Below, in pieces: positions 1 to 62,911 of a DNA stretch of 62,911 bases. Numbering within the stretch: position 1 is the stretch's first letter; each line of letters begins with the position of its first letter. The position numbers and the translations under genes were made by a program. Below the pieces are notes generated by a model that did not search any database, was not told the origin of the DNA, and worked only from the letters and a program-made list of their open reading frames with translations. Where the stretch lies: the IMG/VR virus record IMGVR_UViG_3300045988_079349; one strand, given 5' to 3'. Source of the DNA: a virus.

Positions 1-84
1 CCGGCGCGAGCCCGTGGCTGTAGCTGTAGGAGCCGTAGTTCGCAGACCCATCGCCGTAGACACCGCAAACGAGGTTCGAGGCCC
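1..84 (-). repeat. DGR variable repeat VR2
   Basis: ccggcgcgagcccgtggctgtagctgtagg... is about 84 nt collinear with the TR at 60135-60233. All roughly 20 mismatches fall where the TR has T on the plus strand (A on the coding minus strand). The GC-rich 3' block GGGCTCGCGCCGG is identical to the one in the TR (IMH-like). Confidence 0.75.
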
Positions 85-448
85 AATTATCCTTTTCGGG
101 ACTTCCCCAAGGGGTAACCAACCAGAACGAATTCTTGATATGAGGAGTCAGAATATGATTGTACTTTCGGTATTCATCGAAAGTAAGGGGCGCGACAGTA
201 GTATTTAGTGTGCCGTACCCTTTATATCCATCCATTGCGGTGAGATCGACATCACGGGCGATAGCCTTGATACCGGTATTTTTAAACCAAGACTCAATGG
301 TCTTCCGCGAACCACTCTCTTTATAGTTATTGGAGTCTCCAAAAACAGAATAAATTTCTACCTCAAGGGCAATCACGAAGGGATTACCATTAATTTCGTC
401 AAGAACGAGGCACTTTACTCCATTTACAGTAATAGTTTCACCAATCAT
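1..448 (-). CDS. DGR target protein 2 (C-terminal C-type-lectin-fold carrying VR2); 3' end runs off the window start
   Basis: Minus-strand ATG near 446-448 (MIGETITVNGVKCLVLDEINGNPF...) reads without any stop to position 1. The C-terminus ...WLVTPWGSPEKDNWASNLVCGVYGDGSANYGSYSYSHGLAP aligns codon-for-codon with VR1 and with the AAC-rich TR. It is absent from the ORF track only because no stop lies inside the window. Confidence 0.7.
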   Translation of the reverse strand, partial: MIGETITVNGVKCLVLDEINGNPFVIALEVEIYSVFGDSNNYKESGSRKTIESWFKNTGIKAIARDVDLTAMDGYKGYGTLNTTVAPLTFDEYRKYNHILTPHIKNSFWLVTPWGSPEKDNWASNLVCGVYGDGSANYGSYSYSHGLAP

Positions 449-14681: not shown

Positions 14682-14849
14682 CTTTTTTACTCCCTTTTTT
14701 TTTGTGGTGTGGTTCTCTTGTGTTCTGCCTGTATTGTATCAAGTCTTTTAAGACTTGTCAATACTTTTTTTTGAAAAATTTTTAATTTTCAAGGTTCAGG
14801 GGTTTTGCCCTTGTCCTAACTGGACAAGTCCAGTTTACACCCATTGACC

Positions 14850-16504: not shown

Positions 16505-16703
16505 CGCGGCCTCCTTTTATAAAAATGCCGTTGGGCAAAATTAAATAATTGTCTTATTTTATTTTTCAAATAAAGTGTGTTGAGTTTTTAATTCCTCGAT
16601 CTTCTACTTTAACTCTTTGTTTTCTTTTATTACTTTTGCATATTCGCATGAATCATCGCATCTAATTGGATCATACTATTGATGCAATCTAAGATAACAA
16701 TAA

Positions 16704-17854: not shown

Positions 17855-18179
17855 CTGGTTCTAGCCCCCATGGATCATCAGTATCATAATCAATCATATC
17901 ATAGAATGATATTTTGTTATTAGGCGTTATTTCTAAAACCTAATGTGGGATACAACATATTTCATAATCAGAATCTCTATCTAAATTATATGAAGCATAA
18001 ATATGCAAAGCCGTTGGTCTTGCATTATTGATATTTTGAACATCCCATAAGTCAACAGTGTTTTTATGTCCAAGTATGTCTGTTAGAACTTCTGGCTATA
18101 CTGCTATGCTTATAATTAAAATGTTAAAGTAATACTATGCTCGTTTTGGTAATTCAGAATAGGGTGTATCGAAAAACAT
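17841..18179 (-). CDS. hypothetical protein (112 aa) with 3 in-frame TAG codons
   Basis: GGAGG RBS then ATG; MFFDTPYSELPKRA[TAG]YYFN...IPH[TAG]VLEITPNNKISFYDMIDYDTDDPWGLEPDAID then TAA. Confidence 0.4.
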
Positions 18180-18294: not shown

Positions 18295-19008
18295 ATGAAG
18301 AAAACACATTGTATTTATATGCATAAAAACAAGATTAATGGGAAAATTTATGTTGGTCAAACATTTTAGGATAATCCTAATGCTAGATGGCAAAACGGGC
18401 ATGGATATATAAAACAGCCAAAGTTTTTTTCAGATATTATAAAATACGGATGGATAAATTTTGAACATATTATTTTAGAAGAAAACTTAACGCAATAGGA
18501 GGCGAATGAAAGAGAAAATTTTTGGATTCAATATTTTGATAGTTGTAAAAATGGGTATAATACAATTTCAGAGAATAATAGATCAGAGGTATAGAAAAAA
18601 ACAACAAATAGCCTTATTGTATGCTTAAATACAAATAAATCATATAAAACATTAAAAGAAGCGTCTTTGGATACCGGAGTTGATCCATCTGCAATTTCAA
18701 GATGTTATGGAGGATAGCGTAAAAGTGCAGGAATAATAAATGGTGTTCCTGGGTTTTGGATTTTAACAACATCGGATAAAAGCCTTATTAATAAAATAAA
18801 AAATAATTATAATGATGCTATAAGAAAGATAGTTTGTGTTGAGACTTCTAGAATTTTTAATTCTTTAGATGAGGTAATAGAATATTGTGGATTGCCAGTA
18901 TCTTCTTCAAATAGAGCAAGATTAAAAAGTATTTTAAAATATAAGACAAATTCTTCTTTTGGGCGAGATAAAGAGTTAAATATAAAATTACATTGGAGTT
19001 ATCTATAA
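18295..19008 (+). CDS. GIY-YIG homing endonuclease (I-TevI-like, with NUMOD DNA-binding repeats); 4 in-frame TAG codons
   Basis: MKKTHCIYMHKNKINGKIYVGQTF[TAG]DNPNARW...FEHIILEENLTQ[TAG]EANERENFWIQYFDS...; NUMOD-like IVCLNTNKSYKTLKEASLDTGV and IVCVETSRIFNSLDEVIEYCGLP; TAA stop. Confidence 0.7.
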
Positions 19009-27047: not shown

Positions 27048-28100
27048 ATGTTAGATAAAGCTAATTTACTTAGTTTAATGAAGACTGTCGCCAATGCAAA
27101 TCCTTCTGGTACCTATAGCTATCAAGGAGAATCCTTTAGCTACGACGCTTTGAACACCACTTTGCGCAATGAGTTAAATGAGCTTGTTGGCACAGATGAA
27201 CTTTATAGAGAAAATAAACATACTCTATTCTCTTTAATTGAGCAAACTATGGATGAAGTTGTTCCTAATCGTTTACTCAATTCTTATGGCAATTTTGCCG
27301 AGATTAGAACTTTCGGACAGGGAGATAAACCTGTATTTACTCGTAGAACTGGACTTACCCGTGCTAAGCAATTCATCACTCGTGTGGGACTTGCTGGCGT
27401 ATACGAGACCTTTAAGCTCGGTTCTGAGAGCTTCGAAGTTGGTACAAGTGCTATCGGCGGAGCTGCTCGTATCGGATTCGAGGAGTTCCTCGACGGAAGA
27501 GTAAACTTCGCAGAACTTACTCAGATTGTAACTGAGGGTATGCAAGAGCTTATTTATAGAGAGATTGCTCAAGCTCTTATGGGTTCTATTAATCAGCTTC
27601 CCGCGGCAAACCGTTGTGCCGTTGCTGGTTTTGATGAAGCTACTATGGATTATCTTGTAAATACTGCTAGTGCTTATGGTCAGCCCACTATTTACTGTAC
27701 TCGTGAGTTTGCAGTAAAGATGATTCCAGACAACGAGGCTTGGATTTCTGATAACATGAGAGATCAGTATTGGGGAACTGGATACCTTGCTAACTACAAG
27801 GGAACTAGAGTGGTAATTCTACCTCAAACCCTTGAGGATGAGACTAACTCTAGAAAGATGATTGACCCTGGTTATGCTTGGGTTATCCCCGGTGGAGCAG
27901 ATACTCGTCCTGTTAAAGTTGCTTTTGAGGGTACTACTCACGTGCGCGAGCGCGATGATAACGACGACTGGTCTCGTGATATTCAGGTTTACCGCAAGGT
28001 CGGAGTTGGCGTAATGATGGCAAATAACATTTTCTCTTACGTTGATACTGAACTTCAAGGTGAGCTTGATAATACTAACCCAAATCCAAATAATGGTTAA
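27048..28100 (+). CDS. major capsid protein (putative HK97-fold), 350 aa, TAG-free
   Basis: ORF track; position after the scaffold gene; strong terminator immediately downstream. Confidence 0.6.
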   Translation: MLDKANLLSLMKTVANANPSGTYSYQGESFSYDALNTTLRNELNELVGTDELYRENKHTLFSLIEQTMDEVVPNRLLNSYGNFAEIRTFGQGDKPVFTRRTGLTRAKQFITRVGLAGVYETFKLGSESFEVGTSAIGGAARIGFEEFLDGRVNFAELTQIVTEGMQELIYREIAQALMGSINQLPAANRCAVAGFDEATMDYLVNTASAYGQPTIYCTREFAVKMIPDNEAWISDNMRDQYWGTGYLANYKGTRVVILPQTLEDETNSRKMIDPGYAWVIPGGADTRPVKVAFEGTTHVRERDDNDDWSRDIQVYRKVGVGVMMANNIFSYVDTELQGELDNTNPNPNNG

Positions 28101-35435: not shown

Positions 35436-38400
35436 GTGGCTAATAAAAGATTAAACTATTAGATTGGGTTTACCGCTGATACTACTGAACTTTATAGAGC
35501 AGTAAATGATGCCGTTAAAGCATTAAATAGTATTGGTTCAGGCCAAAAATCTTTTTTAGGTTTAGATAGTGCTACTCAATAGGCAAGAGAACTTTAGACA
35601 ATTTTAACCTCTGCTTTTAATGAAAATACTGGGAAATTAGATCTAACTACATTTGCTAAAAGTTTAGAGAGAAGTGGAAAAAGTTTAAATGACTATGGAC
35701 GTAGCTTAACAAGTATTGGTCCAGCAGGATAGGAAGCTTTTTCATAGGTAGTTAAAGCTATATCTTCTGCTGAACTTCCATTAGTAAGAACGAGTAAATT
35801 ATTCGATCAGCTATGGATAACAATGAAAAATACTGTTCGTTGGCAAGTTACCTCAACTGCTTTAAATAGTTTTGTTGGTACTCTTGAAACCGCCTATGGT
35901 TATGCAAAAGATTTAAATGAATCTTTAACAAACATTCGTATAGTTACTGAAAATTCTGCGGAAGATATGGCTCTATTCGCGGAATAGGCAAATAAAGCTG
36001 CTAAAGCATTAAGTACAACTACTGTAGACTATACTGATGCAGCTCTAATTTATTATCAATAGGGTCTTACTGAGTAGGAAGTTTTAGATAGAACTGAAAC
36101 TACTATAAAAATGGCGAACGCCGCAGGTGTTAGTGCCTAGACTGCATCTGATCAGTTAACTGCGGTATGGAATAACTTTTATGATGGAAGTAAAAGTCTT
36201 GAGTATTATGCAGATGTCATGGTTCGCTTAGGTGCGGATACTGCATCAAGCTCTGATGAAATTTCAGAAGGTATCTAGCAGTTCGCCGCAGTTGCAGAGA
36301 CAGTAGGTTTGAGTTATGAGTATGCAGCATCTGCATTAGCAACTGTTACTGCTACAACTCGTGAATCTGCGAATACTGTAGGTACTGCATTTAGAACATT
36401 ATTTGCACGTATTCAGGGCTTAAATCTTGGCGAAACACTTGATGATGGAACTACTTTAAATAAATACTCTTAGGCTCTTGATAAAGTTGGAATTAACATC
36501 TTTGATGTTAATGGAGAAATTAAAACCATGGATACTCTATTAGATGAAATGGGAGAGAAATGGGAAACTTTATCTAATGATCAATAGATTGCATTAGCAT
36601 AGACTGTAGCTGGAGTACGTCAATATACCCGCCTTATTGCTCTCATGGATAACTGGGATTTCTTCTAGGAAAATCTAGAGAGTGCGTATGGCGCTAGTGG
36701 TTCTTTACAGGAGCAGGCTGATATTTATGCTGAATCTTGGGAAGCAGCTAGAGATAGAGTAAGAGCATCTGCGGAAGATATTTATGATAGTATTATAAAT
36801 CCTGAATTATTTATAAGTGCTGATAACATAGCTTCTCCATTCTTATCTGGAATTGCAGATATTGTTGATGGAATGGGTGGATTAAATGGTATTTTATTAA
36901 CCACTGGTACATTAATCACTTCAGTTTATGGGGATAAGATTGCCAATTCAATGAGAAATATGGCAACAAATATTAGTATTATTACTGGAGTAGAAGCTGA
37001 ACGAGCTAGAGTATTATAGTCTAATGCTGTTGATATATTGAAAAATTTAGAATCTACTTATGCCGCAGGCGACGCAGAAGCATATAGATTAAATATTATG
37101 TATCGTTAGGCAGAAGTGTAGGGGGCTATTAATTCAAAATATGATTCGATGACTATTGAGCAGAGGAAATAGTTATAGTCACAATAGCAGTAGTTAGATA
37201 TACTTAGAGATGAAAATTTAATTATTGCTGACACTATAGGAAAACTATAGCAATCAGCTACGGAAAAATTTGGTTCAATTTTCATTAATATCCCTCAAGG
37301 CTCAGAAGGTTGGCAGGATCAGTTAAAAGCAGAAATAGATTAGTGGAACAAAAAAGCTAAAAAGACATATCGGATCAATTTAGAAATTAATCCTGACACA
37401 ACTGTTGAAACTGTTTTTAGTAATATTTCTAAATAGCTTGATTCATTAGCAAAAAAACATGCTAGTTTACGACTTATTTCTAATTAGTTTTAGAATTTAG
37501 ACGCTACAAGTGAGAAGTATGAATAGAATTTAAAAGAATTAATTGCTACCTACTCTAATTTAGGTACTTCAAATAAGACGGTCTAGGAGATGGAGTCTTA
37601 TTTAAAACGTCTTGGAACCCAAGCAGATAATACAGAAAGTCAAATTAAAGAATTGGGTAATGTCCTTTCTTAGCTTGGAGTAAATAAAAATAATATAAAT
37701 TCTTATATTGATACTTTGATGAATTTGCATTTATAGCTGCAAAGAGGAGAAATTACTTAGGAAGCATATAACAATGCTGTTTAGCGAGTTGTAACTAATA
37801 TTAATAACCTTAATTCTTCTTCTAAAGATTGGGCTAGTGGAATAGTATAGGCTGGAAATGCTATATCATCTCTTTTAATGGCGGTTAATGGCATCAATAG
37901 TATTGGTAGGGTTTTTTCCGATGAGGATATGACCTCTGGAGAAAGATTTATTACAATTCTAACTGGATTAAGTATGATTATTCCATCTGTTACTTCCGCT
38001 ATGAAATTCCTTAATCAAGAAAAAGCGATTTCTGTAGCGGTTACAGGAACAGAAGTTACTGTAACTGGAAGTAGTATAGCTGCAAATTTAGCTAGAACCG
38101 CTGCAAATAAAATTTTAGCAGTTTCTGAGGGAGAAGTGGCTACTGCGACTTAGGTAAGTAATGCAGCTATGGCAGCAAGATTGATTATGTTAGCTCCATA
38201 TGTAGCACTTATTGCAGCATTAGTAGGTGGAATCTACTTAGCAGTAAAAGCATACAATGCTGACGCGGACGCTGCGAAGCGAGCTGCCGAAGCTGCGGAA
38301 GAGACGCAACAGGCTGTAGAAGATGCTACTTCAGCGTATGAGGAATTAAAATAGACTATTTCGGATTATAGCGAAGCCCTTGATAGCATTAATGAGCTAG

Positions 38401-41400
38401 AAAAAGGAACAGAAGAATTTGCAGAATAGATAGAAGACGCTAACAAAAAAGCTAAAGAATTAATTGAAACATATAAATTGTTTGGGCAATATAGTTATGG
38501 TTCAAACGGATAGATAGTATTTGATGAAGGAGTACTAGAGAATCTTTAGGAGCAATAGGCTAGTAATCTTAGTTCATTAGAAAGCGCCAATTATTAGACA
38601 TAGATAACTGCGTCTAATGCAAATTTGAAAGCTTTGGCTACTAGTACGATTAGAGAAACTGGACTAACCTATGGTTACTCTTATCAAGATCGTTCTGGAA
38701 ACGAGTAGGAGATGCAGCGTCTCATTTCTCATGATATGTTAGATGAATTAGCTAATAATTATTATGAGTTAATGAGCGAGGCTTCTGACGGATTTGTAAC
38801 TCTTGAGAGTGGAATTTAGCTTTCTGTCGACGCAGTTGCAGATGCGAAGGATGCATTAGAGGAATATGCCGATGCCGCAAAATCGGCGGCAGAAGAAACA
38901 GAATACTTTGCTAGCTAGATTTTAACTAATTATGTTGGACAAAATTATGAAGGTACAATAGATAGCAATGAAGATTTAATTCGATAGGCTGCAAGTAATC
39001 AAGTAGGTAATACTCAACTTTCTTCTGGAAAAACTGTAGATGAAGCATTGGCAGAAATTAATGCTGCAAATGCCAATAATGCTACTATTAAAGATTTGCT
39101 AAGAGAACTATATAATACGGATTATATGTTCTTAACCGATGAAAGATTGGGTAAGGAATACGCGGAAAAAGTTCTTGGATGGGATACTGCCTCTATTGGT
39201 TATTCTGGAGGATGGGGAAAAGGAACTCTTTCAAATGCCGCTACTGGCGAATCTGTAGAAATGACAGACTAGGCTATGCGCATTGCTTTATAGAATCTAC
39301 TTATGTAGGAGAAAATTTTAAAGCAGTATGCAGACGAAATAGAAAATAATGCTGAAGGAGCTATTGATATAGATTCTTACATTTAGGAGTTAAATGAAGA
39401 TATTAATAATATCAATACTCAATTTGGAGAGGAATTTGGTACAGCATATGCTCAAGCCTTAGCAAATGAAGGAGATATAGATTTTGTTAATTTATTAGAA
39501 CAATCTTTTTCTCCTGAATAGGTAGAAGAGCTAAAAACTAAGGTTAGTTCTGGATTGTTAGATATTCCTTAGGAGTTTCTTGATGCTTTAACTTCTTCAA
39601 TAGAAGATTATGACGCCAGTAATTATTGGGCTAATTAGCTTGAGACAAGTAAGAAAAATGCGGCAGAAATTGGTAGTATCCTTTCTTCTTACCAAAATGA
39701 AGAGGAATTAGATGAGGATTAGCTAGCCTTCTTAGATGAATTGATGGCTAAATATGAAGATTTATCTAATTTACAAGCCACAAATTAGCATGACTATCTT
39801 GAAAGATTAAGAGAGATACAAGAACAAGAAGAAAAAACGTATCTTACTGGATTAGAGGATTCTGCTAATTAGCAAAGAGAGGATATTTAGCAATTAGAAT
39901 CAGAAATAGCAAGATTAGAAGATGCTGGATATGCTCCACTAGATTTAATAGAGGAATTACAATAGAAATTATAGAAGCTTGCAGACACAGAGTATAAAAT
40001 TTAGATTGCTCTCGATACGGATTTAGCTTCTGATATTGATTAGGCATTCGGGTTAGCCAATGAAATAGAATAGCTTAAAGGATATTTGGAAGATGGCCTT
40101 GAAATAACATATGATAGAGCCTAGGAAATAATAGCGGCTGGCTATGGCGCTATGCTTACTAATGCAAGAGAAACGGCAGATAGTACTATTGAGTTAAATA
40201 GAGAAGTTGTTAATAATTTTATTGATGGTAAATAGTAGGAAATAGAAGCTGATAGATTAGCAAGAATAAAGTAGTTAGAAACTGAGAGAGAAGCATTAGT
40301 CGCTAAGCGAGATTCTCTTTATGCTGGATTAGAAGCTTTAAAATCTGGGCTTAAAGCAGAGGATGCGGCCTCTAAAGCTGCGGCACTTGCACAAGCAGCT
40401 ATTTATAAAGCTGATGCCGATTCAAAAGAAATTACAGCTGAAAAAAAGGCTGACGCAGAAGATTTAGCCAATGAAGAAATTGCTAATGATGCCGCCGCTT
40501 TAGTCGATGCTTTGGGAATAATGCATGAAACTGATGCAGAAAATTCTCAATAGGCGTATGATGATATTGAAACTGCGGCGAATCAAAGTGGAGCATCATA
40601 GGTTAGCGTTTGGAATTAGGTTTAGTTAGCAGCAGTTAAAGCATCGTAGGCAATAAAAGCTGCTTATAGCGGGCAGGAAAGTACTTATGATCCCGTGCTA
40701 TTTGAAGGACAGGATAATGTCTCCGTGGGGGCGACCAGTTCACAAACTGCTGATAATACATATGTATTTTCTAAAGCAGATGTTTAGACATTAACTGATG
40801 AAATCCTTAATGCCGCTTAGAATAATATCGAAGTATTAAATAGCGCTACAGAGCAAGCTATTGATGAAATATAGTTAGAATTGAATTCTGTTAATGCTTA
40901 GATCGGTTCTGTAGATGCTGGAATTGCGGCACTAAAAAGCGCTAATTTATCTTTAGATAAAACATAGGCTAACTTAGGTAGTGGTTCTGGCGGAGATAAC
41001 GAAGGTACAAAATATGATGCCGAGGATGAAAAAACTCTTGAAGATATAGAAGATAGATACCATGAAATAACTCGTGAGATTGAGAATTAGAATGATTTAT
41101 TGGATGATATTGGTAATAATATAGATAGAGCATATGGAGCGAAGAAATTATAGGCTTATTAGAAAGAGCTTCAAGAGTTAGAAAAACAGCAAGCTAATTA
41201 TAATAAGATGCTTGATGAGGCTGAGACTTATCTTGAGAAAGATAGATCAGAACTTCAAGGATTATTTAACAATTCTCTTATTTTTGATGAAAATGGAGAA
41301 ATTGAAGGTTATCAAGACGTTCTTCAATCTATTATTGATGATTACAATAATAACTTCTTAACCGATTATAATGCTTTCTTATTGATGTTTAGTAGTCTTA

Positions 41401-44234
41401 CTAAAGATGAATAGGAAGCTAGATAGGCGGAATATGATAGTTGGCAATTACAAAAAGAAGTTGCTGATGAATTATTCTAGGCTCGTTAGGACGCTTTAGC
41501 TCAATATGAAGAAACTCTCGATAAGATTCAAGATGTAAAAGATGAGCAAGAAGAGCTAGAAAGAAATATTGCAGATAATAGATTAAATTAGATTGAATAT
41601 AAACTTGAAGTTGCGATAGATATAAAAGATGCTAAAGATGCGGTTAATGAGCTAACAAGACAAATAGCAGAATCTTTTGGTGATGAGCTAACTCATGGAA
41701 TGGAAGTCGCTCGTATTGATAAAAACAGTATGAACGAGAACATTGAAATCATCAAGAGCTATGAAGAAGCCCTTAAAAGTTATCAGGAAGAATTAGCTAA
41801 TGCCACAGATGCGACTAATATTGATGAGATTGTAAGTAAGTTATCTGACTTACAAGGTAAAATGATTTCTACCGCAGAGGCTTTGCTTGATTGGGTAGAA
41901 GGTCTTGAAGAAATGCTACCAGATGCATTAGATGCCGCGTCAGAAAGATTTGCTGCTTTTACTGATTAGCTTGATCATAATGAATCTGTTCTAGGGCTCA
42001 TCAAAGAATTATATGCTCTTTAGGGAGTTACATATAAGACCGAAGAAGGATTTGAATAGCTTCAAGAAGTAAGCGAAGAAACTATGAAGGCTTAGGTCGC
42101 CAATGCATAGCTGAATAAACAATGGTATGACGGAATCCGTCAAGAACTATTGGAAGCTCAAGCTGCATTAGATGCATTAGGCGGAGATGAAACCGATCCT
42201 GCATATGATGGTTTAAAAGCTAATAGAGATGCTCTACTAGAAGAATTTAATGAAGCACAAGAGGCTATGTTAAGTTCCGCGCAAGCTGCTATGGAGACTG
42301 CTTAGGAGATGTATACTCAAGCTATTGAAAGAGCAGTATATGAATTTGGATAGGCTGTTTCTGGTGGAGTAGGATTAGATCTACTACAAGACAAATTCGA
42401 TCATTATATCGAACAAGAGGATAGATATTTAGATAAAGTAAATGAGGCGTATGAGGTATCTTCTTGGTATAATAAACTACAACAAGATATTGATAAAGCT
42501 ACTAACTCTAAGATGAAAGATTAGTTAAAGTAGCTGCAAGAGGAAATTGATATACGTAGAGAGAATAATACCTTATCTGAGTACGATTTAGAAATTCTCG
42601 AAGCTAAGTATAATGTTCTTTAGGCTTAGATGGCACTTGAAGATGCTCAAAATGCAAAGAATCAACTTAGATTAGTAAGAGATAGTCAAGGTAACTGGAA
42701 TTATCAATACACCGCAGATGCGAGCTAGATAGCAGATGCAGAGCAGAATTTACTTGATGCGGAGAACGAATGGTATAATATAGCAAAGCAACAGGTAGAG
42801 GATGTTACAGGAGAGATTATTTCTACTTGGCAAGAGTGTCAAGATAAGATAAAAGAAATCTATTCTGATATGACCTTGACTGATGAAGAAAGATCTGCTC
42901 GCGCGCAAGAAATTTATTCTTATTATACGCAGAAGGTTAAGGACTTAGAGAGCGAAAAACAGATCGCTATTTAGGATATGACCGAAGCCGGCAATAAAGC
43001 CTTAATTGATATGGCTATTGTTGCGGGAGATGAGGTAAGTGACTTAACTGGAATTACAAGTCAAGAAATTCAAGATATTATAGCTAATTCCGGCTCTAGC
43101 ATTATTGATTTGTTGCTATCAGATAATGAGTAGATTCAAGATATAGTAGGAAGTAATACAAAACTTATTGACCTATTTGATAACGTATTTGCGAAAGACT
43201 TAGCGAATATGACCGCTAATGCCGGCAACTTTGAAGAGTTTTTATCTAATGCAATGGATGAAGCTAGCGGAGCGATGGAGGATTATCAAACTACTGTTTC
43301 TGGAGTAGCCGATTAGACTGGAACAAGTCTTGATGATTTAAAAGATTATATCGACGATGTTTCAACTTCTACTGATTTGTGTTCTGAGGCTGGATCAAAA
43401 GCTGTTACTTAGATGTTAGAATAGATAAGCACTATTCAAGATTTAAGTCAAGAGTATTTAGATATGGCCGATTCAGTCAGAGAATATGTAAGATCACTTG
43501 AAGAAGCCGCTAGAGCTGCTGGTAACACAATAGAAAGCGCAGGAAGTATAGATAAAGATGACTTGCCTTCTTCTGATTCAAGTCAATCTTCTGATACTGA
43601 TAAAGGTAGCTCAGGCGATAGTGGTAGTGGATCTTCCAGTAGTGGAACTGGAGGAGGTAATGGAATCCCCGAAGTAGGAGATGAAGTTATTTATACTGGT
43701 GGAACTTACTATCATGATTCTTATGGCACTGATCCTGCTGGTAGACGCGGTCCAGGTAAAAAGGTTAGAATAACAAACATAGCTAAGGGTAGACCTTATC
43801 CAATCCATGTACAGTCCAATAATTCCGCTTATGGATGGCTAAAAGAAAGTTAGATAAGTGGCTTCGATACTGGAGGATATACTGGAGAATTTGATAATGC
43901 TAAATTAGCTTTCTTACATGAAAAAGAGTTAGTTTTAAATCAAGAGGATACGAAAAATATCTTGGCGGCGGTCTCTGCTATGAGAGCCTTTGGACCTAGT
44001 TTTATAGCCTCTATTGAGAAAACTCTTGACGGGAACGCACTATCTATTTCTAGTATTATGGCATCTAGATTGGGAACTAATACCTAGATTGCGCCGACAG
44101 ATAATGTGGTTTAGCCAAATATAAATATTGAGCGAGTTGAATTCCCCAATGCGACATCTTCTGATGAAATTCAAGATGCTATTCGTAGTTTGGCGGATGA
44201 TGCTACTCAATGGGCGAATAGAAGAAAAGAATAA
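35436..44234 (+). CDS. tail tape measure protein, ~2,932 aa, with roughly 100 in-frame TAG codons
   Basis: AAAGGAGG RBS then GTG. One frame stays open to a TAA when TAG is read as sense. It joins the track ORFs 37878..38153, 38169..38354, 39048..39272, 41208..41414, 41700..41969 and 43464..43853, all in the same phase. Long Ala/Glu-rich coiled coils, a hydrophobic segment (38169..38354) and a C-terminal SH3-like domain. Confidence 0.8.
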
Positions 44235-54745: not shown

Positions 54746-56656
54746 ATGGAAAGTTTCTATGGAGGACCTAAAGGTAGAGATTTTGATATTAAGGAAATCT
54801 TTACTAGCAAATATTAGATGGATAGAGATTTATCAAAGGGTTGGACATCTTCTATCTTCCCAGGTGATCTCGTTGTTGTATCATATGGTTTGCCAAGCGA
54901 TACAAACTATGATATTTATAAGAATGAAGATTTATAGAATTATGGGAAAAGCTATAACTCTACTCTTTGGCAAAAATGTTATAATGATAAAGATGGAAGC
55001 GGATCTGCGGGTGGCCTATACTATAAGATGATAGCTTCCATGACTGGTAATACACCAAGAATTAGCTTAAATGACACAGAAGTCTTGGATGCAGATGAAG
55101 ATCCAAACGTGGTTTGGGATAATACCGATCTAGATAGACTTTGGCTTACTTTTCAGTTACCATAGAGTTAGAATATCTAGTTAGGAGAGACTACTATTCT
55201 GGATTGTAATGAACTTCCAGAAGCGTCTTTAGACACGACCGATATAAATAATCCTAGCTTAAAGTTGTCCTTACCGCAATCTTAGGTAATTAATACTGCA
55301 TTAGTAGAATTATTAGATGTAGGTGAAAATCCAAGAGTATCTTTAGAAGTTTCAGGAGATTATTCTATCAACAAACCGGCAATTAAGTTTTATCTACCTG
55401 TATCTTAGTCATTATAGGAAGGTATTACTACAACTTTAGATGCTAATGAAAAACCTAGATTTGAAATAAATTTTGATGATATAAACAATCCAATTATTAA
55501 TTTCTTCTTGCCTCAAAGTTAGGTGATGGGAGATCCAGAAACTACGGTAGTGGGACCCGAGGAGAATCCATCTGTAGTAATGGATGATTCGAATATTAAT
55601 GCGCCAGTATTGAAATTTAGTTTACCAGAAGCGGTTAAATTTTACTATGGCGAGTTACTAGGCGAGAGAACAGAAGGAACTTACGAAGAAACTAATGATT
55701 CTTTTGTGGATTATAATGTTGGTGATTATTACATTAATGCACCAACCGGTTTTATTTATAAAGTAATCAATAAAACTGGAACCACTTGTACTTTTTAGTA
55801 TATAGCTTGTATTTAGTCTCCTCTTCCTACTATAGAAGTTACAGAATTAAAGCCATATACAGATAAAGGTTCTGAGTTTGAGCCGACAATTCCTACGGTT
55901 ACAAGGGAGTTTACTAACGAAGAACAAACTGCCTGGAAGCTAGTTTTTGGGCTGCCATCCGCGGTTAAATACACTACTTCATTTGCTTTTGTTGGAATTG
56001 ACGAAACTGGCTCTGTATCCAATGAAATTACAGCAGATGACACTATAAATATTGATTTTAAGATTCCTAGAGGATCAAAATTATACTCTGGAACTTAGAT
56101 TTCTGATTCAACAACATCTACTGTTATTGAGGGTGCGAAAGCTGGAGATTTATATTTAAATACAGAAACCGGAGATATATATGAATTAAATTCTTCTGGT
56201 ATATGGGAGAAAAATTCCGGCAATTTAAAAGGCCCTGTTGGCGAGGCTCTTAATATCGTTAAGAGCTACACAATAAATGAGACAGACACGCTAAAAGATT
56301 CTTTATAGAATGGTGTAGATTATATTGAAGAAAACTATGATGGAGAAATTAGCGCGTAGGATATTTTCTCTATTACGTGGGTAGAATATGAAACTAACCA
56401 AGAAACTTCTTACTGGTATTATAAAGCCGCAGATGGAGTGTGGGGAAGAGTCTAGCTAACTGGCGGTATTTCTAACCTTATTGATAATAGTTATAATAGT
56501 GAAGATGGTGGAGAAGTAACAAATAAAACTTACAGTATTCACTATATTAATAGCTTAATAGGTGGAACTATTACAAATAAGGATAGATAGACATATTCTG
56601 CAACATAGATTGAAGAATTACTATCTTGGGGAAGTTTTAGTGATTTAATACCTTAA
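54746..56656 (+). CDS. tail fibre / receptor-binding protein candidate (~636 aa) with repeated LP(Q)SQ beta-strand motifs, about 22 TAGs
   Basis: In frame with track 55523..55798; repeats FQLP[TAG]S[TAG]N, LSLPQS[TAG]V, FFLPQS[TAG]V. Confidence 0.5.
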
Positions 56657-56689: not shown

Positions 56690-57472
56690 ATGGCTTTATT
56701 TAAGATTTTTAAAGGCGCAGAAGAGGATCTTAATGATGTACCTCTTCATGAAGGATACGCCTATTTCTGCGAGGACACAGGAAATTTATTTATTGATGTA
56801 AGTAATATAGAGGGCGAACGTCTACAGGTCAATGCCTATGCTGCTCAAGTTTTAAAGAATAATGTTACTGAAATTGATATTGACGACATTTTTCTTAAAA
56901 ATATGACTGCTACTGTAGCGTAGGGTGGAACTGGACATGATACATTAACTGTTAATGCTTTGCTAGTAGGAAATGGAACAGAAGCATTAAAAATGATTGA
57001 AATTGCAGCCGGCAGTTTAGTAATCGGAAATGCGGAAAATGGTGTGGCTGGTTTACAAGGTGCTGGTGCTTTATACGCGATTACTGCGGGTGCACCTACA
57101 TTTGGTACACTTCCAATCTAGGTTGGAGGAACTGGAGGCACGACAGCCGCGCGAGCCAGAACTAATTTGGATGTATATAGCAAGTCAGAAACAGATAACC
57201 AAATTACTGGTAGCACATCTGTAGCTTATACAACCACTCTTGCCGCGGCATCATGGGTATTGAACGGAGATATGTATACATAGACATACTCTAATACTGC
57301 TTTAACTTGCGGAAAAGCGGGAAATGTGCCACCTATCATTACTTATACTTCTAATTTAGAGGAATATAGTAAAATTGATCATGCTGATGCAACTGTAGGA
57401 TCTGGAATCACTTTCTACACAAAAGATAAACCAGAAAGCGATATTGCTATTGTTATTATTGATGTAAAATAA
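56690..57472 (+). CDS. tail fibre protein (~260 aa), 4 TAGs
   Basis: Track 56690..56923 extended through TAGs; motif GGTGHDTLTVNALLVGNGT. Confidence 0.5.
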
Positions 57473-57512
57473 AAAAAAATAGGGAGAACCTTTTAATTAA
57501 GGTTCTCCCTAT
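57473..57512. terminator. bidirectional intrinsic terminator
   Basis: AAAAAAAAATAGGGAGAACCttttaattaaGGTTCTCCCTATTTTTTTTA. Confidence 0.6.
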
Positions 57513-57517
57513 TTTTT

Positions 57518-57976
57518 TTATTCCTCGCAAGGAGGTCTACTGTATAAGTGATAATGCGGTTTTTCTTCTCCAAACCATTTCCATCTAAGGTAATCATCTA
57601 ACACTATTGCTAAAAGGCTCAAGAAGAACCATGCAATAGAGAAGGGCAAGCAAATCTGCCCCATAAAGTTAAGTGGAATGTTAGAATAATCCCAAATACC
57701 TAAACCTAGTCTTATATTTAAAACTAATCCAAAAATTAATTCTAAAGCAGTTATAATTAAAGATCCTTTTACTCCTTGAGTTAAGATAGATTCTTCCCAA
57801 AGAATATTCTCATTCATTAGTCCAATTAATAGAAAGCATAAGCCACCTAGCAAAAACATAGACCAATGACAAACTCCAAGGCTAATAAAAGTTTTATAGA
57901 GGAACTCTATACTGTAATATAGAGTTCCTCCTACTACGAATAGAATTATATTTTTATTCGCTGTCTGTGTCTTCAT
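57518..57976 (-). CDS. integral membrane protein (4 predicted TM helices), TAG-free
   Basis: ORF track. Confidence 0.55.
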   Translation of the reverse strand: MKTQTANKNIILFVVGGTLYYSIEFLYKTFISLGVCHWSMFLLGGLCFLLIGLMNENILWEESILTQGVKGSLIITALELIFGLVLNIRLGLGIWDYSNIPLNFMGQICLPFSIAWFFLSLLAIVLDDYLRWKWFGEEKPHYHLYSRPPCEE

Positions 57977-58616
57977 AACTCAATTCAATAGCTTTTAATT
58001 CATCTATTGAATTAGCTCCAAATATCTAGGTTTTATATTCTTGCATTAAGTGGTATTTTGGATATACCGCATTAGAAATAGCTAAACTTAGAGCGGATAA
58101 TTGCTCTAAAGTCCATGGTACACACTCTTCGTGTCGAGCGTGCCACTCAAGCGTAGGATTTTCTACTTCAGCAGCTACAGCCACCTAGAATTGATTGAGA
58201 TTTAAGCTAATCTCAGATTGGTCCTCCTACGTAATTCCATATTCTTTTCCATCGACCCAAGTTAACGGGTGGGTAGCAAGATACTCTGCGAATAGTTTCT
58301 TGTTTTCCTCTTGTTTATCATATTTTGCCTAATCTAAATCAGCGATGAAAGTACCATCTTCTTGATTATACTTTGAATAGTTAGGAATGACGTTTGATGG
58401 AATTGTTTCCAACTCTAATACTGTAACAGCATTAGGTTGATTTAATACATCGGCTTTGACTAGAGTGTAATGAGTATCACTATCTGAGCCGATAACCCCA
58501 GTTCCCTCTTCTTCCTCGCAGGCAACGACAATACCATTTGAGGATTGCAGTTTAATGTAACGTGCTTCTGAAAGAATATCAACTACTATATTCTCTCTAT
58601 TTAATAGAATATACAT
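57954..58616 (-). CDS. hypothetical protein (~220 aa) with 4 in-frame TAGs
   Basis: Track ORF 58329..58616 continues through the TAG at 58329 to a TAA at about 57954. Confidence 0.4.
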
Positions 58617-58768
58617 TACTTTATTTCAACTCCTTTGAATAATGAACGAAAATAATTGTCCATGTCCTGAATTATATAAAAGCAAGTTCCTTTAGAAATA
58701 TGCGCCCTCCAGCCCTAATAAGATTTCTAAACTTCTTCAGTTGAAATTTTATTATCTAACCATAAAGC

Positions 58769-59833
58769 CTACATTTTCTTTAGTTTTCTGCGCTGATGAG
58801 CTACTTTTTTCTTGAAAGGAAGTTGTATTATATGATTAGTTTCTGTGAGATGAAAATTCCACTTTAAATATTTAAAAGGAGCGTGGCGTTCGCCATCTGC
58901 GTGAATAGGAGAAATTCTAGTGATAGTAGTTTTCTTCTTATTCATCTTTAATCCTTGTTTATTTAAGCGAATTTCTATTTGTTTCTCACATTCGGCCAAG
59001 TATTTACTGTCATTATGGAGCAAGTATAAATCATCCATATAACGACCATAATACTTAATATGTAACTCTTCTTTTATGAAGTGGTCAATTTCGTTCAATG
59101 CTAGCAATGCGAATAATTGTGACGTTTGACTTCCTAATCCCAGGCTCTTTCTTTCATATTCATAATACTTACGACCAGGCTAGAAATGAGTAACATTAAC
59201 TCTTTCATACTTGTGTCGCTTACTTGTGTAATATATTTTACCGGGTATAGGTGAAGTGTCTTTTGTTAGCTTAAAAGAAAATGTATCTATCAAGTAACAA
59301 CATAACTAATAAACAAGTTTATCTTTTATTAGCCGTTTAGCTGCTTTCTTTAAAGATTCATGGTCAATAGAATCAAAATATTTCTGTATATCAATTCTTA
59401 ATCCATAAAAATCTTTTCCTAACCCATACTCTTTATGAGCCTATTGGAGATGTTTCTTAACTCTTTCCAGAGCGAAGTCTATTCCCTTTCCTTTTAGGGT
59501 TGCACAATTATCATAGATAAATCTAGGAGTTAATTCTGGTAGCAAAACTTGTTCACATAACGCATTTTGTACCAGTCTGTCGTTGATATGACACGCTCTT
59601 ATATCTCTTGGTTTGCCTCGTTCGATTATCGAAAAACAACTAAACACAAGCTGTTCGTATTCACACGCTCGCAGGTCAGCTTCTGTTTTTAAAATTGTTT
59701 CTATCCTATTCTCTCCAAAATTAATTGTACTATCTTTCCATCGAACGTTTCGACATACCTTATAAGACGCCTCATACATAGCGTCAAAACTACAAAAACG
59801 CTCGAAAGCAGTATCTTGTTTTATTTCAGACAT
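58769..59833 (-). CDS. DGR reverse transcriptase (~354 aa) containing 2 internal in-frame TAG codons and a TAG stop
   Basis: Track ORFs 59441..59833 and 58769..59107 are in the same phase; the gap between them is open except for TAGs at 59441 and about 59180. Motifs PRDIRACHINDRLVQNALC, SQLFALLALNEIDHF (DGR-type motif 4) and YGRYMDDLYLL (YxDD). Confidence 0.8.
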
Positions 59834-60134
59834 ACTTTCTCCTTATCATGTAGCTATAGTGGTAGCTACTCGAGCTCCACGTCTACAGTCTTACTTTATC
59901 CACTTTTTCAGTGAAATGGTTAAGTTCTCCTTAGATGAAAAGGCAGATCTACCTATAGTATATTATTCGATAGTTGTAGAGCAAAGCTCTTTAATGGTCT
60001 CTCAATCTCTTCCCCACATAAAGTGAGTGCAATCCAGAGTAAACCTTAATTAGATGGATAATAATATACTCCGGGGTACTATTTAGGCGTTGCTCGTTTG
60101 CGCTGCTCCGCAGCTTAACTCGCAACATGATAGC

Positions 60135-60233
60135 TCCATCTAATCCGGCGCGAGCCCGTTGCTGTTGTTGTAGTTGTTGTTGTTCGCAGATCCATCGTTG
60201 TTGACATTGCAAACGTTGTTCGAGTTGTTGTAG
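60135..60233 (-). repeat. DGR template repeat (TR)
   Basis: The minus sense is Asn-codon (AAC) rich: ...NYNNSNNVCNVNNDGSANNNNYNNSNGLAP. It matches VR1 and VR2 except at its adenines. It lies between the avd-like gene and the RT. Confidence 0.8.
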
Positions 60234-60430
60234 TTACGGGACCGAAAGATACAGAACTTAACCGTAGAAAAATATTATCGACCTCTCCTATATCTCTTAG
60301 GAGCTGAATATCTATGCTCTGTTATAAGTTTATCTCTATTTTTTCTATCTTGGATTGACTCTTTTACTCTCTTTGTCAATCTAGCTAGATGTTCAAAAGA
60401 GCGTCTTTTCTTTTTGCTGTTCTGAGCATA

Positions 60431-60769
60431 CTAATAAATACATAGGTCGATTTGTCGAAATATACTATCACAATATTCTAGTGCTTTATTATGATAGTCA
60501 TTTCTCTTTGCAAGGGTTTCTTTGTCTTTCAAGTTTATCTTACATGCCTCATAACAGCAAGCATGTAAGCCCTTTCCGCACTTAATTATATCGTACCCGA
60601 ACGCTTGAAGAGGTTGACCCTCTCCAAGCAGTCCAGGCTTACAAATTTGTTTTCCATCCTTATCATATTCTCTAGGACGAGTTAAGACTAAAATATATCC
60701 CATTAAGTCGCGTGCTTTATAAAGACAATCTTGCTTTGATATGTGTCTATCTTTTACTTTTACAGACAT
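60431..60769 (-). CDS. putative accessory variability determinant (Avd-like), 112 aa
   Basis: ORF track; size and position (target - this gene - TR - RT) fit the canonical DGR layout. Sequence similarity to Avd is not recognisable by eye. Confidence 0.45.
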   Translation of the reverse strand: MSVKVKDRHISKQDCLYKARDLMGYILVLTRPREYDKDGKQICKPGLLGEGQPLQAFGYDIIKCGKGLHACCYEACKINLKDKETLAKRNDYHNKALEYCDSIFRQIDLCIY

Positions 60770-60850
60770 TTAAAATCTCCCTCACTTGAATATATAAAAT
60801 TTTAGTTGGACAATTTAATCTTAACTGTCCCGAATTGTTATTTTATTGTG

Positions 60851-62618
60851 TTATCCGATAACGAAAGCCGGCGCGAGCCCGCAGCTGCTGTAGTAGCCGT
60901 AGGTGTCCGCAGACCCATCGATGCCGACAAGGCAAACGTAGCTCGAGGTGTTGTAGTAACGGGACCTCTCCCATTGATACGCATATGAGCTAGTTGGATT
61001 ACCGTTTGCATCTCCTAAGTACATAACCCTTCTAGAGTTGCTTGTGTAGTAACTATACGCAGCATTATAACCTTGAGTACACTCTGCTTTAGAGGTAGTA
61101 CTGTTTGAAGTGGAGATAGGAGAGTAAGAATCTAATCCGTATTCTCTTTCGGATAATAAGAATACTGTTTCATCATTATAGGTTACAGAACCATTTCTAG
61201 AGCTATTTGTACTAGGACAAGTACCCTTCTTTACTGTCTTAATAGAATCTTTCGCGCTACAGCGGTTATAGAAATCTTGACATAGATCTCTAGCAGTTGA
61301 TCCAATCCATACTGCATTGCTACCAAAATCTGTAGAATTAGGAAGAGCGGAGACAGCATTAAAAGCTAAAGTTCCTGTTCCATCCTAATCTGCGCCAACG
61401 CATCTCATTAATACTTGATTACCACCTAAAACAGAAGATGATAAACTTACTCTTTTAGTCTTACCTACGCAATTTTGTCGCTCTCCAGATGATGCCTTAG
61501 CGGCCCATGTTTTTAATCCAGCCCACCATTTAGCATCACCAACAGCAGTTTCAGATCCCCACTCCCAATAGCTAGCTGTTACTGTAACAGTTTTATTACT
61601 TGGAGCCGTATAGTTAGTTCCTGCTGCAACCTTGATAGTAATAGTTGTAGAAGAAATAGCTGTACTACCGTCGCCTTTAATTGTAAGAACGTTCCCACTT
61701 AAAGATAAAGTTAAGCCAGAAACGCTAGTTGGGCTATAACTAATAGCTCCATCTCCAGGACGGGTAATAGTAACTTTTACGCCTGCACTATAGTTATCTC
61801 CATCAAGAGCTACAGAAGTTGGACTTACTGTTAAAGTCCCAGCAGCTTTATTGATAGTCCAGTTTACATCAAGATTTGATGTAGTTCCATCGGCCCATCT
61901 ATAATTACTATTTAGTGTGAAAGTAGCAGTATAGGTTCCAGCGTTAGTCGCGGAAGTTGTCCCGCCAATCGTCATATAAGTGGTATTAAAGTTATTCCAA
62001 TAGGAAGCACCACTTACTGATTGGCTACTACCAGTATAGGTAAGATTATTCTTCCATGTTGGTTTCGGCACCGATTTTCTTTCAACAGTAACATTGAAAG
62101 AAGCAGACTGAGTTACTCCATTTTCTGTGTAAGAAACAGTAATTTTCTAGGTGCCAACCGCAGTTAATGACGTTGGAGAGCAACTATACCCGGTAACCGC
62201 GGATGATGTACTATCAGAATAACTTGCTGTAACTACCATTCCTGTTGTTTGGAGAGTGTCTCCATATTCATAAGTTGTCTTAGTTGGGTTAGTAGTAACC
62301 TAAATACTAAGAAGTTTATGAATAACAGTAATGTCTTGAGTGGTCTAACAAGTTTCTCCTGATTCAGAGTAAGTAATTGTTACTTTAGTAACCCCATCAG
62401 TTAAAGGGTTTGGAGTAACTTGATACCCAGTTACTTCTGCTGTTGTTACAATAACGCCGTCCATGCCGTAAGATGCGGTGACTACCATTCCCGCGGGATT
62501 AAAAGTATCACCAGCAAGATAGCTCGTTTTAGTAGGGGGAGTGGTTACTTCAATTTTTACAAGAGAAAGAGAACCTCCACCTTTTCCACCCTATTCAGCT
62601 AAAATACATTTAGGCAAA
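60851..62618 (-). CDS. DGR target protein 1: tandem Ig-like (Big_2-type) domains plus a C-terminal C-type-lectin-fold ending in VR1; contains TAG codons and an apparent +1 frameshift near 62080-62110
   Basis: GAAGGAGG RBS then TTG (about 62617). The frame A ORF runs to a TGA at about 62081. Frame B (the track ORF 61385..62071) continues through a TAG to a TAA at 60851-60853. The C-terminus reads ...GNPTSSYAYQWERSRYYNTSSYVCLVGIDGSADTYGYYSSCGSRPAFVIG. Confidence 0.65.
60868..60966 (-). repeat. DGR variable repeat VR1
   Basis: About 99 nt collinear with the TR; all roughly 20 differences fall at TR adenines; shares the GC-rich GGGCTCGCGCCGG 3' block. Confidence 0.8.
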
Positions 62619-62911
62619 TTATTTACCTCCTTCTATCTAGCTATTGTTTCAAACAAATCTAAACTACTAGATAGAAGGTCGAGGATGGAAGCGATCTTCG
62701 CTCCAGTCTTTTAGAAAGCCATAAACAATTTCCGAGAAAAAGTACACTTTTTAACAGGAAAAATACTTTTTCTTCCTAGATAACAAAAAATTGGGAAAAG
62801 GGTAAGAAACCCTTTTCCCAAAAGTGAGTATCTTACTCTTTTCAAATATACTTGAAAAAGAGTATAGATTGATTATATATGTTTGACCAAGTTCAGTAAA
62901 GTGTACTTTTT

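What the first reader, a model, noticed from the sequence alone, without database searches (positions are those of the whole stretch)
58769..62618. Complete diversity-generating retroelement: target (Ig-like plus C-type-lectin VR1) - Avd-like - TR - reverse transcriptase
A 99-nt TR (60135-60233) is AAC/Asn-codon rich on its coding (minus) sense. VR1 (60868-60966) sits at the extreme 3' end of a target ORF. It differs from the TR at about 20 positions, and every one of them is a TR adenine. The 3' GC-rich block GGGCTCGCGCCGG is shared, as an IMH would be. Downstream lies a reverse transcriptase with DGR-type motifs (SQ in motif 4, YMDD). A 112-aa ORF sits in the Avd position. The target has tandem Big_2-like Ig domains, which is typical of phage tail-fibre DGR targets.
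Basis: partly seen in the sequence, partly recalled or inferred. Interest (0 to 1): 0.9.

Follow-up and report, generated by a model that had tools for sequence, protein, structure and literature searches.

The report
Two-target DGR in amber-recoded gut phage
This is a genuine, complete and apparently active diversity-generating retroelement that rewrites the tips of two phage lectin-like binding proteins, and its genes read as intact only when the TAG stop codon is translated as glutamine; it is a good example of a well-known kind of system, not a new one.

Summary
A template repeat (TR, 60145-60243, minus strand) matches VR1 (60868-60966) with 19 mismatches. It also matches a second, remote VR2 (window 1-80) with 16 mismatches. 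All 35 mismatches sit at TR adenines.

Several details needed correcting:
- The TR coordinates given were 10 nt off.
- The phage reads TAG as a sense codon, most likely Gln. The RT is therefore 405 aa (58616-59833, six in-frame TAGs), and target 1 is 588 aa (60851-62617, five TAGs).
- The 'Avd-like 112-aa ORF' is really a 164-aa protein (60275-60769) that reads through a TAG.
- The Ig-like domains are Big_3, not Big_2.

Near-identical genomes from other samples differ from the window almost only inside VR1 and VR2, and only at TR-adenine sites, so the element is or recently was active. The 311-nt TR-RT spacer has a strongly covarying RNA structure.

DGRs with DUF6273 targets, with two targets, and with amber-interrupted RT genes have all been published. 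This is a new member of a known kind and of modest interest.

The parts
60851..62617 (-). Target gene 1 (T1), 588 aa. TTG start at 62617 behind the ribosome-binding site GAAGGAGG. Five in-frame TAG codons (62593, 62347, 62302, 62149, 61387). Ig-like Big_3 domains followed by a C-terminal DUF6273 / C-type-lectin-like domain.
60868..60966 (-). VR1, 99 nt. It encodes the last 32 residues before the APAFVIG tail of T1 and ends with the GC-rich block GGGCTCGCGCCGG (60868-60880).
   Evidence: 19 of 19 mismatches to the TR are at TR adenines. It differs from the 98.8%-identical genome L001 at 18 sites, all TR-adenine sites.
60275..60769 (-). Accessory protein (Avd-type four-helix bundle), 164 aa, pI 9.7. 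Codon 113 is TAG (60433-60431), read as a sense codon.
60145..60243 (-). Template repeat (TR), 99 nt, non-coding. 35 adenines, mostly in AAC codon-equivalents. Its 3' end is the GC-rich block (60145-60157).
   Evidence: The TR is identical in L001 although VR1 differs.
59834..60144 (-). TR-RT spacer, 311 nt, with a conserved RNA structure. A long-range helix pairs 60148-60134 with 59940-59929. There is a hairpin at 60126-60089 and a second hairpin at 59887-59849, just upstream of the RT ribosome-binding site.
   Evidence: Alignment of 16 relatives. RNAalifold predicts 36 pairs, 19 with compensatory changes. 96.3% of cells are paired against 30-50% when partners are slid, and 0 of 500 shuffles reach the observed covariation. 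Coordinates.
58616..59833 (-). DGR-type reverse transcriptase, 405 aa, with six in-frame TAG codons. Motifs LGLGSQTSQ and YMDD.
   Evidence: Pfam RVT_1 E 1.8e-16. phrog_1423 E 7e-82. Best PDB hit is the Bordetella phage DGR RT 8ub7_A at 8e-14. TAG positions align mostly with Gln in relatives.
2..448 (-). Target gene 2 (T2), a small stand-alone DUF6273-type protein with no in-frame TAG. Its last 33 codons are cut off by the window start. The full gene is seen in L045 (98% identical).
   Evidence: Seven of 8 family members hit DUF6273, best E 9e-11. hhalign to the T1 C-terminal domain gives E 4e-5.
1..80 (-). VR2, 80 nt, matching the 3' 80 nt of the TR. It lies 59 kb from the TR within the window.
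   Evidence: 16 of 16 mismatches are at TR adenines. It differs from L045 at 17 sites, all TR-adenine sites, against 2 differences in the other 950 nt.

Best explanation
This is a complete diversity-generating retroelement in a large gut phage that reads TAG as glutamine, and it serves two targets.

Inferred mechanism, by analogy with Bordetella phage BPP-1. The minus-strand operon T1 - accessory protein - TR - RT is transcribed. The RT (405 aa) and the basic 164-aa Avd-type protein bind the TR RNA together with its structured 311-nt 3' spacer. They copy the TR into cDNA and misincorporate opposite template adenines. The cDNA then replaces VR1 at the C-terminus of the Ig-like/lectin-like protein T1. 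It also replaces VR2 in the small lectin-like protein T2, 59 kb away. The shared GC-rich 3' block fixes the 3' boundary. About 19 Asn-type (AAC) codons are randomised on the ligand-binding face of each protein, which would change what the phage binds.

Shown here: the anatomy, the adenine-only mismatch pattern, the folds, the covarying spacer RNA, and VR-restricted differences between near-identical genomes.

Inferred only: the cDNA chemistry, the RT-accessory protein complex, and the role of T1 and T2 in receptor binding.
For: - Adenine-specific TR/VR mismatches: 19/19 and 16/16. There are exactly three copies in the window, against 0 expected.
- RT: nearest to the BPP-1 DGR RT in the PDB. 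It carries the GxxxSQ and YMDD motifs and reaches no cut-off for group II, retron or DRT families.
- Targets: both are DUF6273 / C-type-lectin-like.
- Activity: against L001 (98.8% identical, identical TR), 18 of about 29 differences in the 5.4 kb around the cassette fall in VR1, all at TR-adenine sites. Against L045 there are 17 differences in VR2 and 2 in the other 950 nt. An independent protein, P0088, differs at 15 residues, 14 of them encoded by the VR. In a related genome the non-adenine TR variant GGACTGG is present in the TR, in VR1 and in the distant VR2.
- More than 30 related contigs carry the same adenine-only TR/VR pair.
- TAG recoding: summed length of open frames of at least 100 codons rises from 31.7 kb to 82.2 kb. 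TAG positions align mainly with Gln.
- Spacer RNA covariation.
Against: - No suppressor tRNA in the window or in 14 related loci, so how TAG is decoded is not shown here.
- The accessory protein has no direct Pfam, NCBIfam or PDB sequence match. Four-helix bundles are common, and the direct profile comparison to a small Avd gave only 12.6% probability.
- No stable hairpin or cruciform lies downstream of either VR, unlike in BPP-1 (z -0.7 and -0.2).
- No reads were available, so heterogeneity within one sample is not shown.
- In two relatives (L006, L033) the RT frame is truncated by something other than TAG.
Confidence: 0.93

Rival explanations
1. A decayed, non-functional DGR remnant. Under the standard bacterial code the RT, the target and the accessory gene are broken by stop codons, and the VR/TR differences would be fossils of past activity.
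For: The code-11 ORF list shows the RT split into 130-aa and 112-aa pieces and the target into 228-aa and 57-aa pieces. No suppressor tRNA is in the window. Two relatives have RT frames truncated by non-TAG events.
Against: All interruptions are TAG, and the whole late region behaves the same way. TAG positions align with Gln in relatives, and full-length 405-414-aa RTs are restored in nearly all of them. The sequence after the accessory gene's TAG is conserved as protein. Genomes 98-99% identical elsewhere carry 17-18 adenine-site differences in each VR, which means recent activity.
Confidence: 0.04
2. An ordinary repeat family created by duplication or recombination between lectin-like genes. 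The RT would belong to an unrelated retroelement, such as a group II intron, retron or defence RT.
For: The best NCBIfam hit of the RT is group_II_RT_mat, because that library has no DGR model. PADLOC DRT models give weak hits.
Against: All those hits are far below their cut-offs (74.9 bits against 300, and so on). The PDB ranks the DGR RT first. Thirty-five of 35 mismatches at TR adenines is not expected from duplication (P about 1e-11 and 1e-9). The TR is non-coding and is conserved while the VRs vary.
Confidence: 0.01
3. A real DGR in which only the adjacent VR1 is a live target. VR2 in the distant T2 gene would be a relic, or would be kept similar by gene conversion with VR1.
For: VR2 is 59 kb from the TR and covers only 80 of its 99 nt. 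T2 lies among TAG-free non-structural genes.
Against: VR2 has no non-adenine mismatch to the TR. It differs from L045 at 17 adenine sites while its flanks are 99.8% identical. In a related genome VR2 carries the same non-adenine TR variant as that genome's own TR. VR1 and VR2 differ from each other at adenine sites, so they are not converting one another.
Confidence: 0.05

Closest known systems
Bordetella phage BPP-1 DGR (mtd - avd - TR - brt), the prototype; structures 8ub7 and 4dwl
   Same: Same gene order: target/VR, small basic four-helix accessory protein, TR, structured spacer, RT. Adenine-only mutagenesis. The VR sits at the C-terminal end of a C-type-lectin fold. A GC-rich element lies at the 3' end of VR and TR. 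The RT is the best PDB match.
   Different: Only about 25-30% local RT similarity, and the RT here has a roughly 60-aa insertion before motif 4. The accessory protein is 164 aa, against 122 aa for the Avd chain 8ub7_B, with a beta-hairpin insertion and a basic tail, and it does not hit the bAvd Pfam model. There are two targets. No hairpin follows the VR. The spacer is 311 nt. The target domain is DUF6273, not Mtd. The genes contain sense TAG codons.
Two-target DGRs of gut phages nd4 and nd12 (PMC10743442); related DGRs of Roseburia phage Shimadzu and Faecalibacterium phages
   Same: These are the closest RTs in GenBank phages (35% identity to Phage nd12). One TR serves two targets, both with DUF6273 C-lectin domains. 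One target combines lectin and Ig-like domains. The other is a single small lectin domain flanked by short helices, like T2. VR2 is shorter than VR1.
   Different: In the nd4/nd12 'tentaclins' the lectin domain and VR are N-terminal and the Ig-like domains follow. Here the order is reversed, Ig-like first and lectin/VR last. The paper describes both target genes as parts of one DGR cassette, whereas here T2 is 59 kb away. Those records are 32.8-46.4 kb; I did not check which genetic code they use.
DGRs of Zeta and Epsilon crAss-like phages with amber-suppressed RT genes (PMC12386605, PMC11054128)
   Same: A DGR in a large gut phage that recodes a stop codon. RT genes are interrupted by TAG. 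The RT has the GxxxSQ motif. Targets have C-type-lectin tips, some with Ig-like domains. Some cassettes include Avd and several VRs.
   Different: A different phage lineage. The capsid protein here is 51% identical to phage phAss-1 and 38% to Enterococcus phages, and the listed matches include no crAss-like phage. The RT is at most 35% identical to anything in the GenBank phage set.
phAss-1 group of ~133-136 kb TAG-to-Gln phages (PMC10607447)
   Same: The closest described genome type. Capsid protein 51% identical. A very long tape-measure-like ORF. TAG appears in late genes only. Related contigs are 100-148 kb.
   Different: That paper's text contains no mention of a DGR or a reverse transcriptase. 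It reports three suppressor tRNAs, and none is seen in this partial window.

Membership tests
Diversity-generating retroelement (DGR) | TR/VR pair whose differences are confined to adenines of the TR | tested here: met
   TR-VR1 19/19 and TR-VR2 16/16. The same holds in more than 30 related contigs.
Diversity-generating retroelement (DGR) | Reverse transcriptase of the DGR clade (motif 4 GxxxSQ, YxDD), not group II intron or retron | tested here: met
   LGLGSQTSQ and YMDD are in the sequence. The best PDB hit is the BPP-1 DGR RT at 8e-14, against group II at 1e-7 and retron at 4e-4. All NCBIfam group II, retron and DRT models are far below cut-off. No formal phylogeny was made.
Diversity-generating retroelement (DGR) | VR at the 3' end of a target ORF, on a C-type-lectin (or Ig) scaffold | tested here: met
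Diversity-generating retroelement (DGR) | Accessory variability determinant (Avd or HRDC) next to the TR | tested here: met
   A conserved 164-aa basic protein lies between VR1 and the TR, and its model has the Avd-type fold. See the Avd rows for sequence-level membership.
Diversity-generating retroelement (DGR) | IMH-type element: GC-rich 3' end shared by VR and TR, followed by divergent flanks; in BPP-1, also a hairpin or cruciform downstream of the VR | tested here: inconclusive
   The GC-rich 13-mer is shared and the flanks diverge right after it (VR CTTTC, TR ATTAG). No stable hairpin follows either VR. Function is not testable here.
Diversity-generating retroelement (DGR) | Ongoing diversification: VR varies at adenine sites while the TR and flanks stay constant | tested here: met
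   Between genomes: L001 (18 sites), L045 (17 sites), P0088 (14 of 15 changed residues in the VR). Within one sample: not testable, because no reads were available.
Diversity-generating retroelement (DGR) | RT/Avd-dependent synthesis of adenine-mutagenised cDNA from TR RNA | not testable with these tools
   This needs biochemistry or in vivo assays.
Avd family (Pfam bAvd PF22296 / 23S_rRNA_IVP PF05635) | Significant match to the family profile | tested here: not met
   No Pfam, PHROG, NCBIfam or PDB sequence hit for the 164-aa protein or its family profile. Only a transitive chain exists: family profile to P0137 at E 4e-6, P0137 to the small Avd-like protein of L057 at E 7e-15, and that protein to bAvd at E 3.9e-5, below the cut-off.
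Avd family (Pfam bAvd PF22296 / 23S_rRNA_IVP PF05635) | Four-helix-bundle fold of the Avd/S23 type; small and basic | tested here: met
Stop-codon-recoded phage (code 15, TAG to Gln) | ORFs restored genome-wide when TAG is read as sense, with TAG aligned to Gln in homologues | tested here: met
   Summed length of open frames of at least 100 codons is 31.7 kb under the standard code and 82.2 kb with TAG as sense; the longest rises from 466 to 2938 aa. Gln is by far the commonest residue opposite TAG.
Stop-codon-recoded phage (code 15, TAG to Gln) | Phage-encoded suppressor tRNA (anticodon CUA) | tested here: not met
   No tRNA in the window or in 14 related loci. The window is only about half of a genome of about 100-150 kb, so the gene may lie elsewhere. 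Some recoded phages have none (PMC10607447).
Tentaclins (PMC10743442) | N-terminal C-lectin domain carrying the VR, followed by Ig-like domains ending in a conserved anchor Ig domain | tested here: not met
   T1 has the opposite order: Big_3/Ig-like domains first and DUF6273 with the VR last. It uses the same building blocks but is not a tentaclin.

The most novel reading that the evidence does not exclude
The DGR may be gated by the phage's genetic-code switch. The RT (6 TAG), the accessory protein (1 TAG) and target 1 (5 TAG) can be made only while TAG is decoded as Gln, presumably late in infection. The second target, T2, is TAG-free, lies 59 kb away among early or non-structural genes, and can be made at any time. 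Mutagenic retrohoming would then be confined to the late phase and act in trans over half a genome. T2 could be a diversified binder with a non-virion role rather than a tail protein.
Probability: 0.2. Interest if true: 0.5.

Novelty: new member of a known kind. Interest (0 to 1): 0.3.

Why it matters
The window gives a clean, well-supported worked example of how DGR finders and standard gene callers fail on recoded phages. Under code 11 the RT, the target and the accessory gene all look broken or truncated. It adds a DGR to a phage lineage related to phAss-1, for which the published description mentions none. It also defines a small, divergent Avd variant family: only 27 clusters at 50% identity among 1.84 billion representative proteins, and invisible to Pfam. 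The covarying TR-spacer RNA structure could guide biochemical reconstitution. It does not change the current understanding of how DGRs work.

Tried and rejected
- **Circular junction.** I tested whether the window is a circular genome in which T2/VR2 (window start) sits directly upstream of T1 (window end). It does not. Relatives continue past both window ends with sequence absent from the window, and T2 lies 56-59 kb from the RT on contigs of 104-146 kb. T2 continues for 33 more codons in L045.
- **Rfam.** A search of 58000-62911 at E up to 1 gave only chance-level hits.
- **Direct sequence identification of the accessory protein.** Pfam, PHROGs, NCBIfam, and PDB searches by single sequence and by profile all found nothing. 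A profile-to-sequence comparison with a small Avd was weak.
- **Structure prediction of the window's own 164-aa protein.** I used the 92%-identical homologue P0001 instead.
- **Hairpin or cruciform downstream of VR1 and VR2.** Folding was no better than for shuffled sequence.
- **tRNA search.** None in the window or in 14 related loci.
- **Nucleotide search of GenBank phages.** No close relative of the locus.
- **A third VR in the window.** None found.
- **T1/T2 similarity outside the VR.** BLASTP shows none. Only profile comparison links the two domains.
Full report
**Observation**

The region was read on both strands. The repeat finder gives the correct register: 60142/60145-60243 pairs with 60865/60868-60966, an offset of 723. 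It also shows a third copy at window 1-80.

In the coding (minus) sense, TR 60145-60243 differs from VR1 at 19 of 99 positions and from VR2 at 16 of 80. All 35 differences fall on TR adenines. With 35 A among 99 positions, the chance of this is about 4e-11 for VR1 and about 1e-9 for VR2. The variable positions are mostly the first two bases of AAC codon-equivalents, so no stop codon can arise. A pattern built from the non-adenine TR positions finds exactly these three sites, with none expected by chance. All three copies end in GGGCTCGCGCCGG. After that block the VRs read CTTTC and the TR reads ATTAG.

**The genes are readable only with TAG as a sense codon**

Under the bacterial code the RT and the target fall into fragments. 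Across the window, treating TAG as sense raises the summed length of open frames of at least 100 codons from 31.7 kb to 82.2 kb, and the longest frame from 466 to 2938 aa. Recoding TGA gives no such long frames (longest still 466 aa), and recoding TAA raises the total but not the longest frame (495 aa). In-frame TAGs are concentrated in the plus-strand late block (18295-57472) and in the DGR operon. The minus-strand block at 1-17000 is almost free of them.

With TAG read through, the genes are as follows:
- RT: 58616-59833, 405 aa, six TAGs.
- T1: 60851-62617, 588 aa, TTG start behind GAAGGAGG, five TAGs.
- Accessory ORF: reads through its apparent stop to 60275, giving 164 aa.

In more than 40 related loci the accessory TAG position is Q, E or K, and the following 51 residues are conserved as protein. 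Across RT alignments the residue most often opposite a TAG is Gln (529 counts, against 154 for the next, Glu), and full-length RTs are restored. No tRNA gene lies in the window or in 14 related loci.

**What the parts are**

*RT.* It hits Pfam RVT_1 and phrog_1423 at E 7e-82. Its best solved-structure relative is the Bordetella phage DGR RT 8ub7_A (E 8e-14), ahead of group II intron RTs (1e-7) and retron RTs (4e-4). The alignment places LGLGSQTSQLFA on bRT's IGSLTSQLFA, and YMDD is present. NCBIfam group II, retron and DRT models are all far below their cut-offs, and PADLOC gives only generic RT hits. The nearest RTs in GenBank phages are 35% identical: Phage nd12, Roseburia phage Shimadzu and Faecalibacterium phages.

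A profile search of 1.84 billion representative proteins finds only 27 clusters. The most distant include P0137, a 137-aa protein lying between a DUF6273 gene and an RVT_1 gene. P0137 matches the small Avd-like protein of locus L057 at E 7e-15, and that protein hits Pfam bAvd at E 3.9e-5, below the cut-off. The protein is therefore Avd-like by fold, by position and by a transitive sequence chain. It is not a member by direct profile match.

T2 is cut by the window start. Locus L045, 98% identical, shows 33 further codons after VR2. T2's relatives are small proteins of about 190-200 aa. Seven of 8 hit DUF6273, and their profile aligns with the T1 lectin domain at E 4e-5. In other phages a T2-like gene is directly followed by an Avd-like gene.

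**Evidence of activity**

- Locus L001 is 98.8% identical to the window over 7.9 kb and has an identical TR. Eighteen of the roughly 29 differences in the 5.4 kb around the cassette fall inside VR1, all at TR-adenine positions.
- L045 differs from the window at 17 positions in VR2, all TR-adenine sites, and at 2 positions in the other 950 nt.
- An independently assembled protein, P0088, differs at 15 residues, 14 of them encoded by the VR.
- More than 30 related contigs keep an adenine-only TR/VR pair.
- In the genome that holds L006 and L046, a non-adenine variant of the GC-rich block (GGACTGG) is present in the TR, in VR1 and in VR2 some 56 kb away. This is what copying from one TR into both VRs predicts.

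**Spacer RNA**

The 311 nt between the TR and the RT are conserved. The sequence GATTAGATG directly after the TR is invariant in the 16 sequences aligned. RNAalifold predicts three elements:
- a long-range helix pairing the TR 3' end and flank (60148-60134) with 59940-59929;
- a hairpin at 60126-60089;
- a hairpin at 59887-59849.

Nineteen of 36 pairs show compensatory changes. 96% of cells are paired, against 30-50% when partners are slid, and no shuffle reaches the observed covariation. Rfam has no matching family. By analogy with the BPP-1 DGR RNA (my own knowledge), this is likely the RNA scaffold that the RT-accessory complex recognises and from which cDNA synthesis is primed. That step is inference.

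**Context**

The window is not a whole circular genome. Relatives extend beyond both ends, and T2 and the RT are 56-59 kb apart on contigs of 104-146 kb. The capsid protein is 51% identical to that of phage phAss-1, a 136-kb TAG-to-Gln gut phage (PMC10607447). The text of that paper contains no mention of a DGR or a reverse transcriptase.

**Comparison with published work**

- Phages nd4 and nd12 have DGRs with two DUF6273 C-lectin targets: one lectin-plus-Ig 'tentaclin' and one small single-domain protein, with a shorter VR2 (PMC10743442). T1 here has the reverse domain order, and T2 here is remote rather than in the cassette.
- DGRs whose RT genes are interrupted by amber codons are described in Zeta crAss-like phages (PMC12386605).
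- DGRs are very common in gut phages (PMC8241571).

**Verdict**

The system is a new member of a known kind. The points of some interest are the dependence of the DGR machinery on TAG read-through, the divergent 164-aa Avd variant, the remote TAG-free second target and the well-supported spacer RNA structure.

Noticed in passing
window 1-62911: The whole window uses TAG as a sense codon. The late plus-strand block 18295-57472 is full of in-frame TAGs; a 2803-aa tape-measure-like ORF at 35823-44234 has 98. The minus-strand block at about 1-17000 has almost none. No tRNA gene is present. The capsid protein (27048-28100) is 51% identical to that of phage phAss-1.
   Followed up: partly
window 1; loci L004, L007, L008, L014, L024, L034, L036: The window begins exactly at the last base of VR2's GC-rich block. 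Several related IMG/VR contigs also start or end inside or beside VR1. Assemblies seem to break at the variable repeats, which would fit within-sample heterogeneity, although a repeat-induced break is also possible.
   Followed up: partly
window 57954-58616 (-) and 57518-57976 (-): A 220-aa ORF has a start codon that overlaps the RT stop codon (TAATG). It has four in-frame TAGs and weak DUF4376 and tail-fibre (phrog_1348) matches. A TAG-free membrane protein (Pfam ABC_trans_CmpB) follows, then a strong bidirectional terminator at 57472-57519. The DGR operon therefore appears to continue into two more genes.
   Followed up: partly
window 55500-56500 (inside ORF 54746-56656, +): A second cluster of differences between the window and the 98.8%-identical L001: about 60 of 98 differences. 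It has no TR-like repeat and looks like a recombination or host-range hotspot in a tail gene.
   Followed up: no
window 2641-2940: A cluster of six or seven roughly 30-nt palindromic repeats (ATTTCATGGTATTCTGACAATACCATGAAAT). They look like iterons or operators.
   Followed up: no
window 4558-13431 and 5929-11741: Promoter-like repeats of about 57 nt containing the reverse complement of TTGACA recur through the early minus-strand region, as do GC-rich hairpin repeats (AAATTCGGGCCG...CGGCCCG, six copies). They are probably repeated early promoters and terminators.
   Followed up: no
window 9363-9821, 15740-16504, 17063-17887, 18295-19008: Auxiliary genes: an AbrB/MazE-type DNA-binding protein, a microbial-type poly(ADP-ribose) glycohydrolase, a FolD-like methylene-THF dehydrogenase/cyclohydrolase with 7 in-frame TAGs, and a GIY-YIG nuclease.
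   Followed up: partly
loci L006 and L033: In two relatives the RT frame stops early (54 and 165 aa) for reasons other than TAG, yet their VRs are diversified. This is either assembly error or recently inactivated copies.
   Followed up: no
L057 (about 5001-5970): In a more distant phage a T2-like DUF6273 gene runs into a small Avd-like gene when TAG is read as sense. This shows that the T2 type of protein is the primary, cassette-adjacent DGR target elsewhere.
   Followed up: partly
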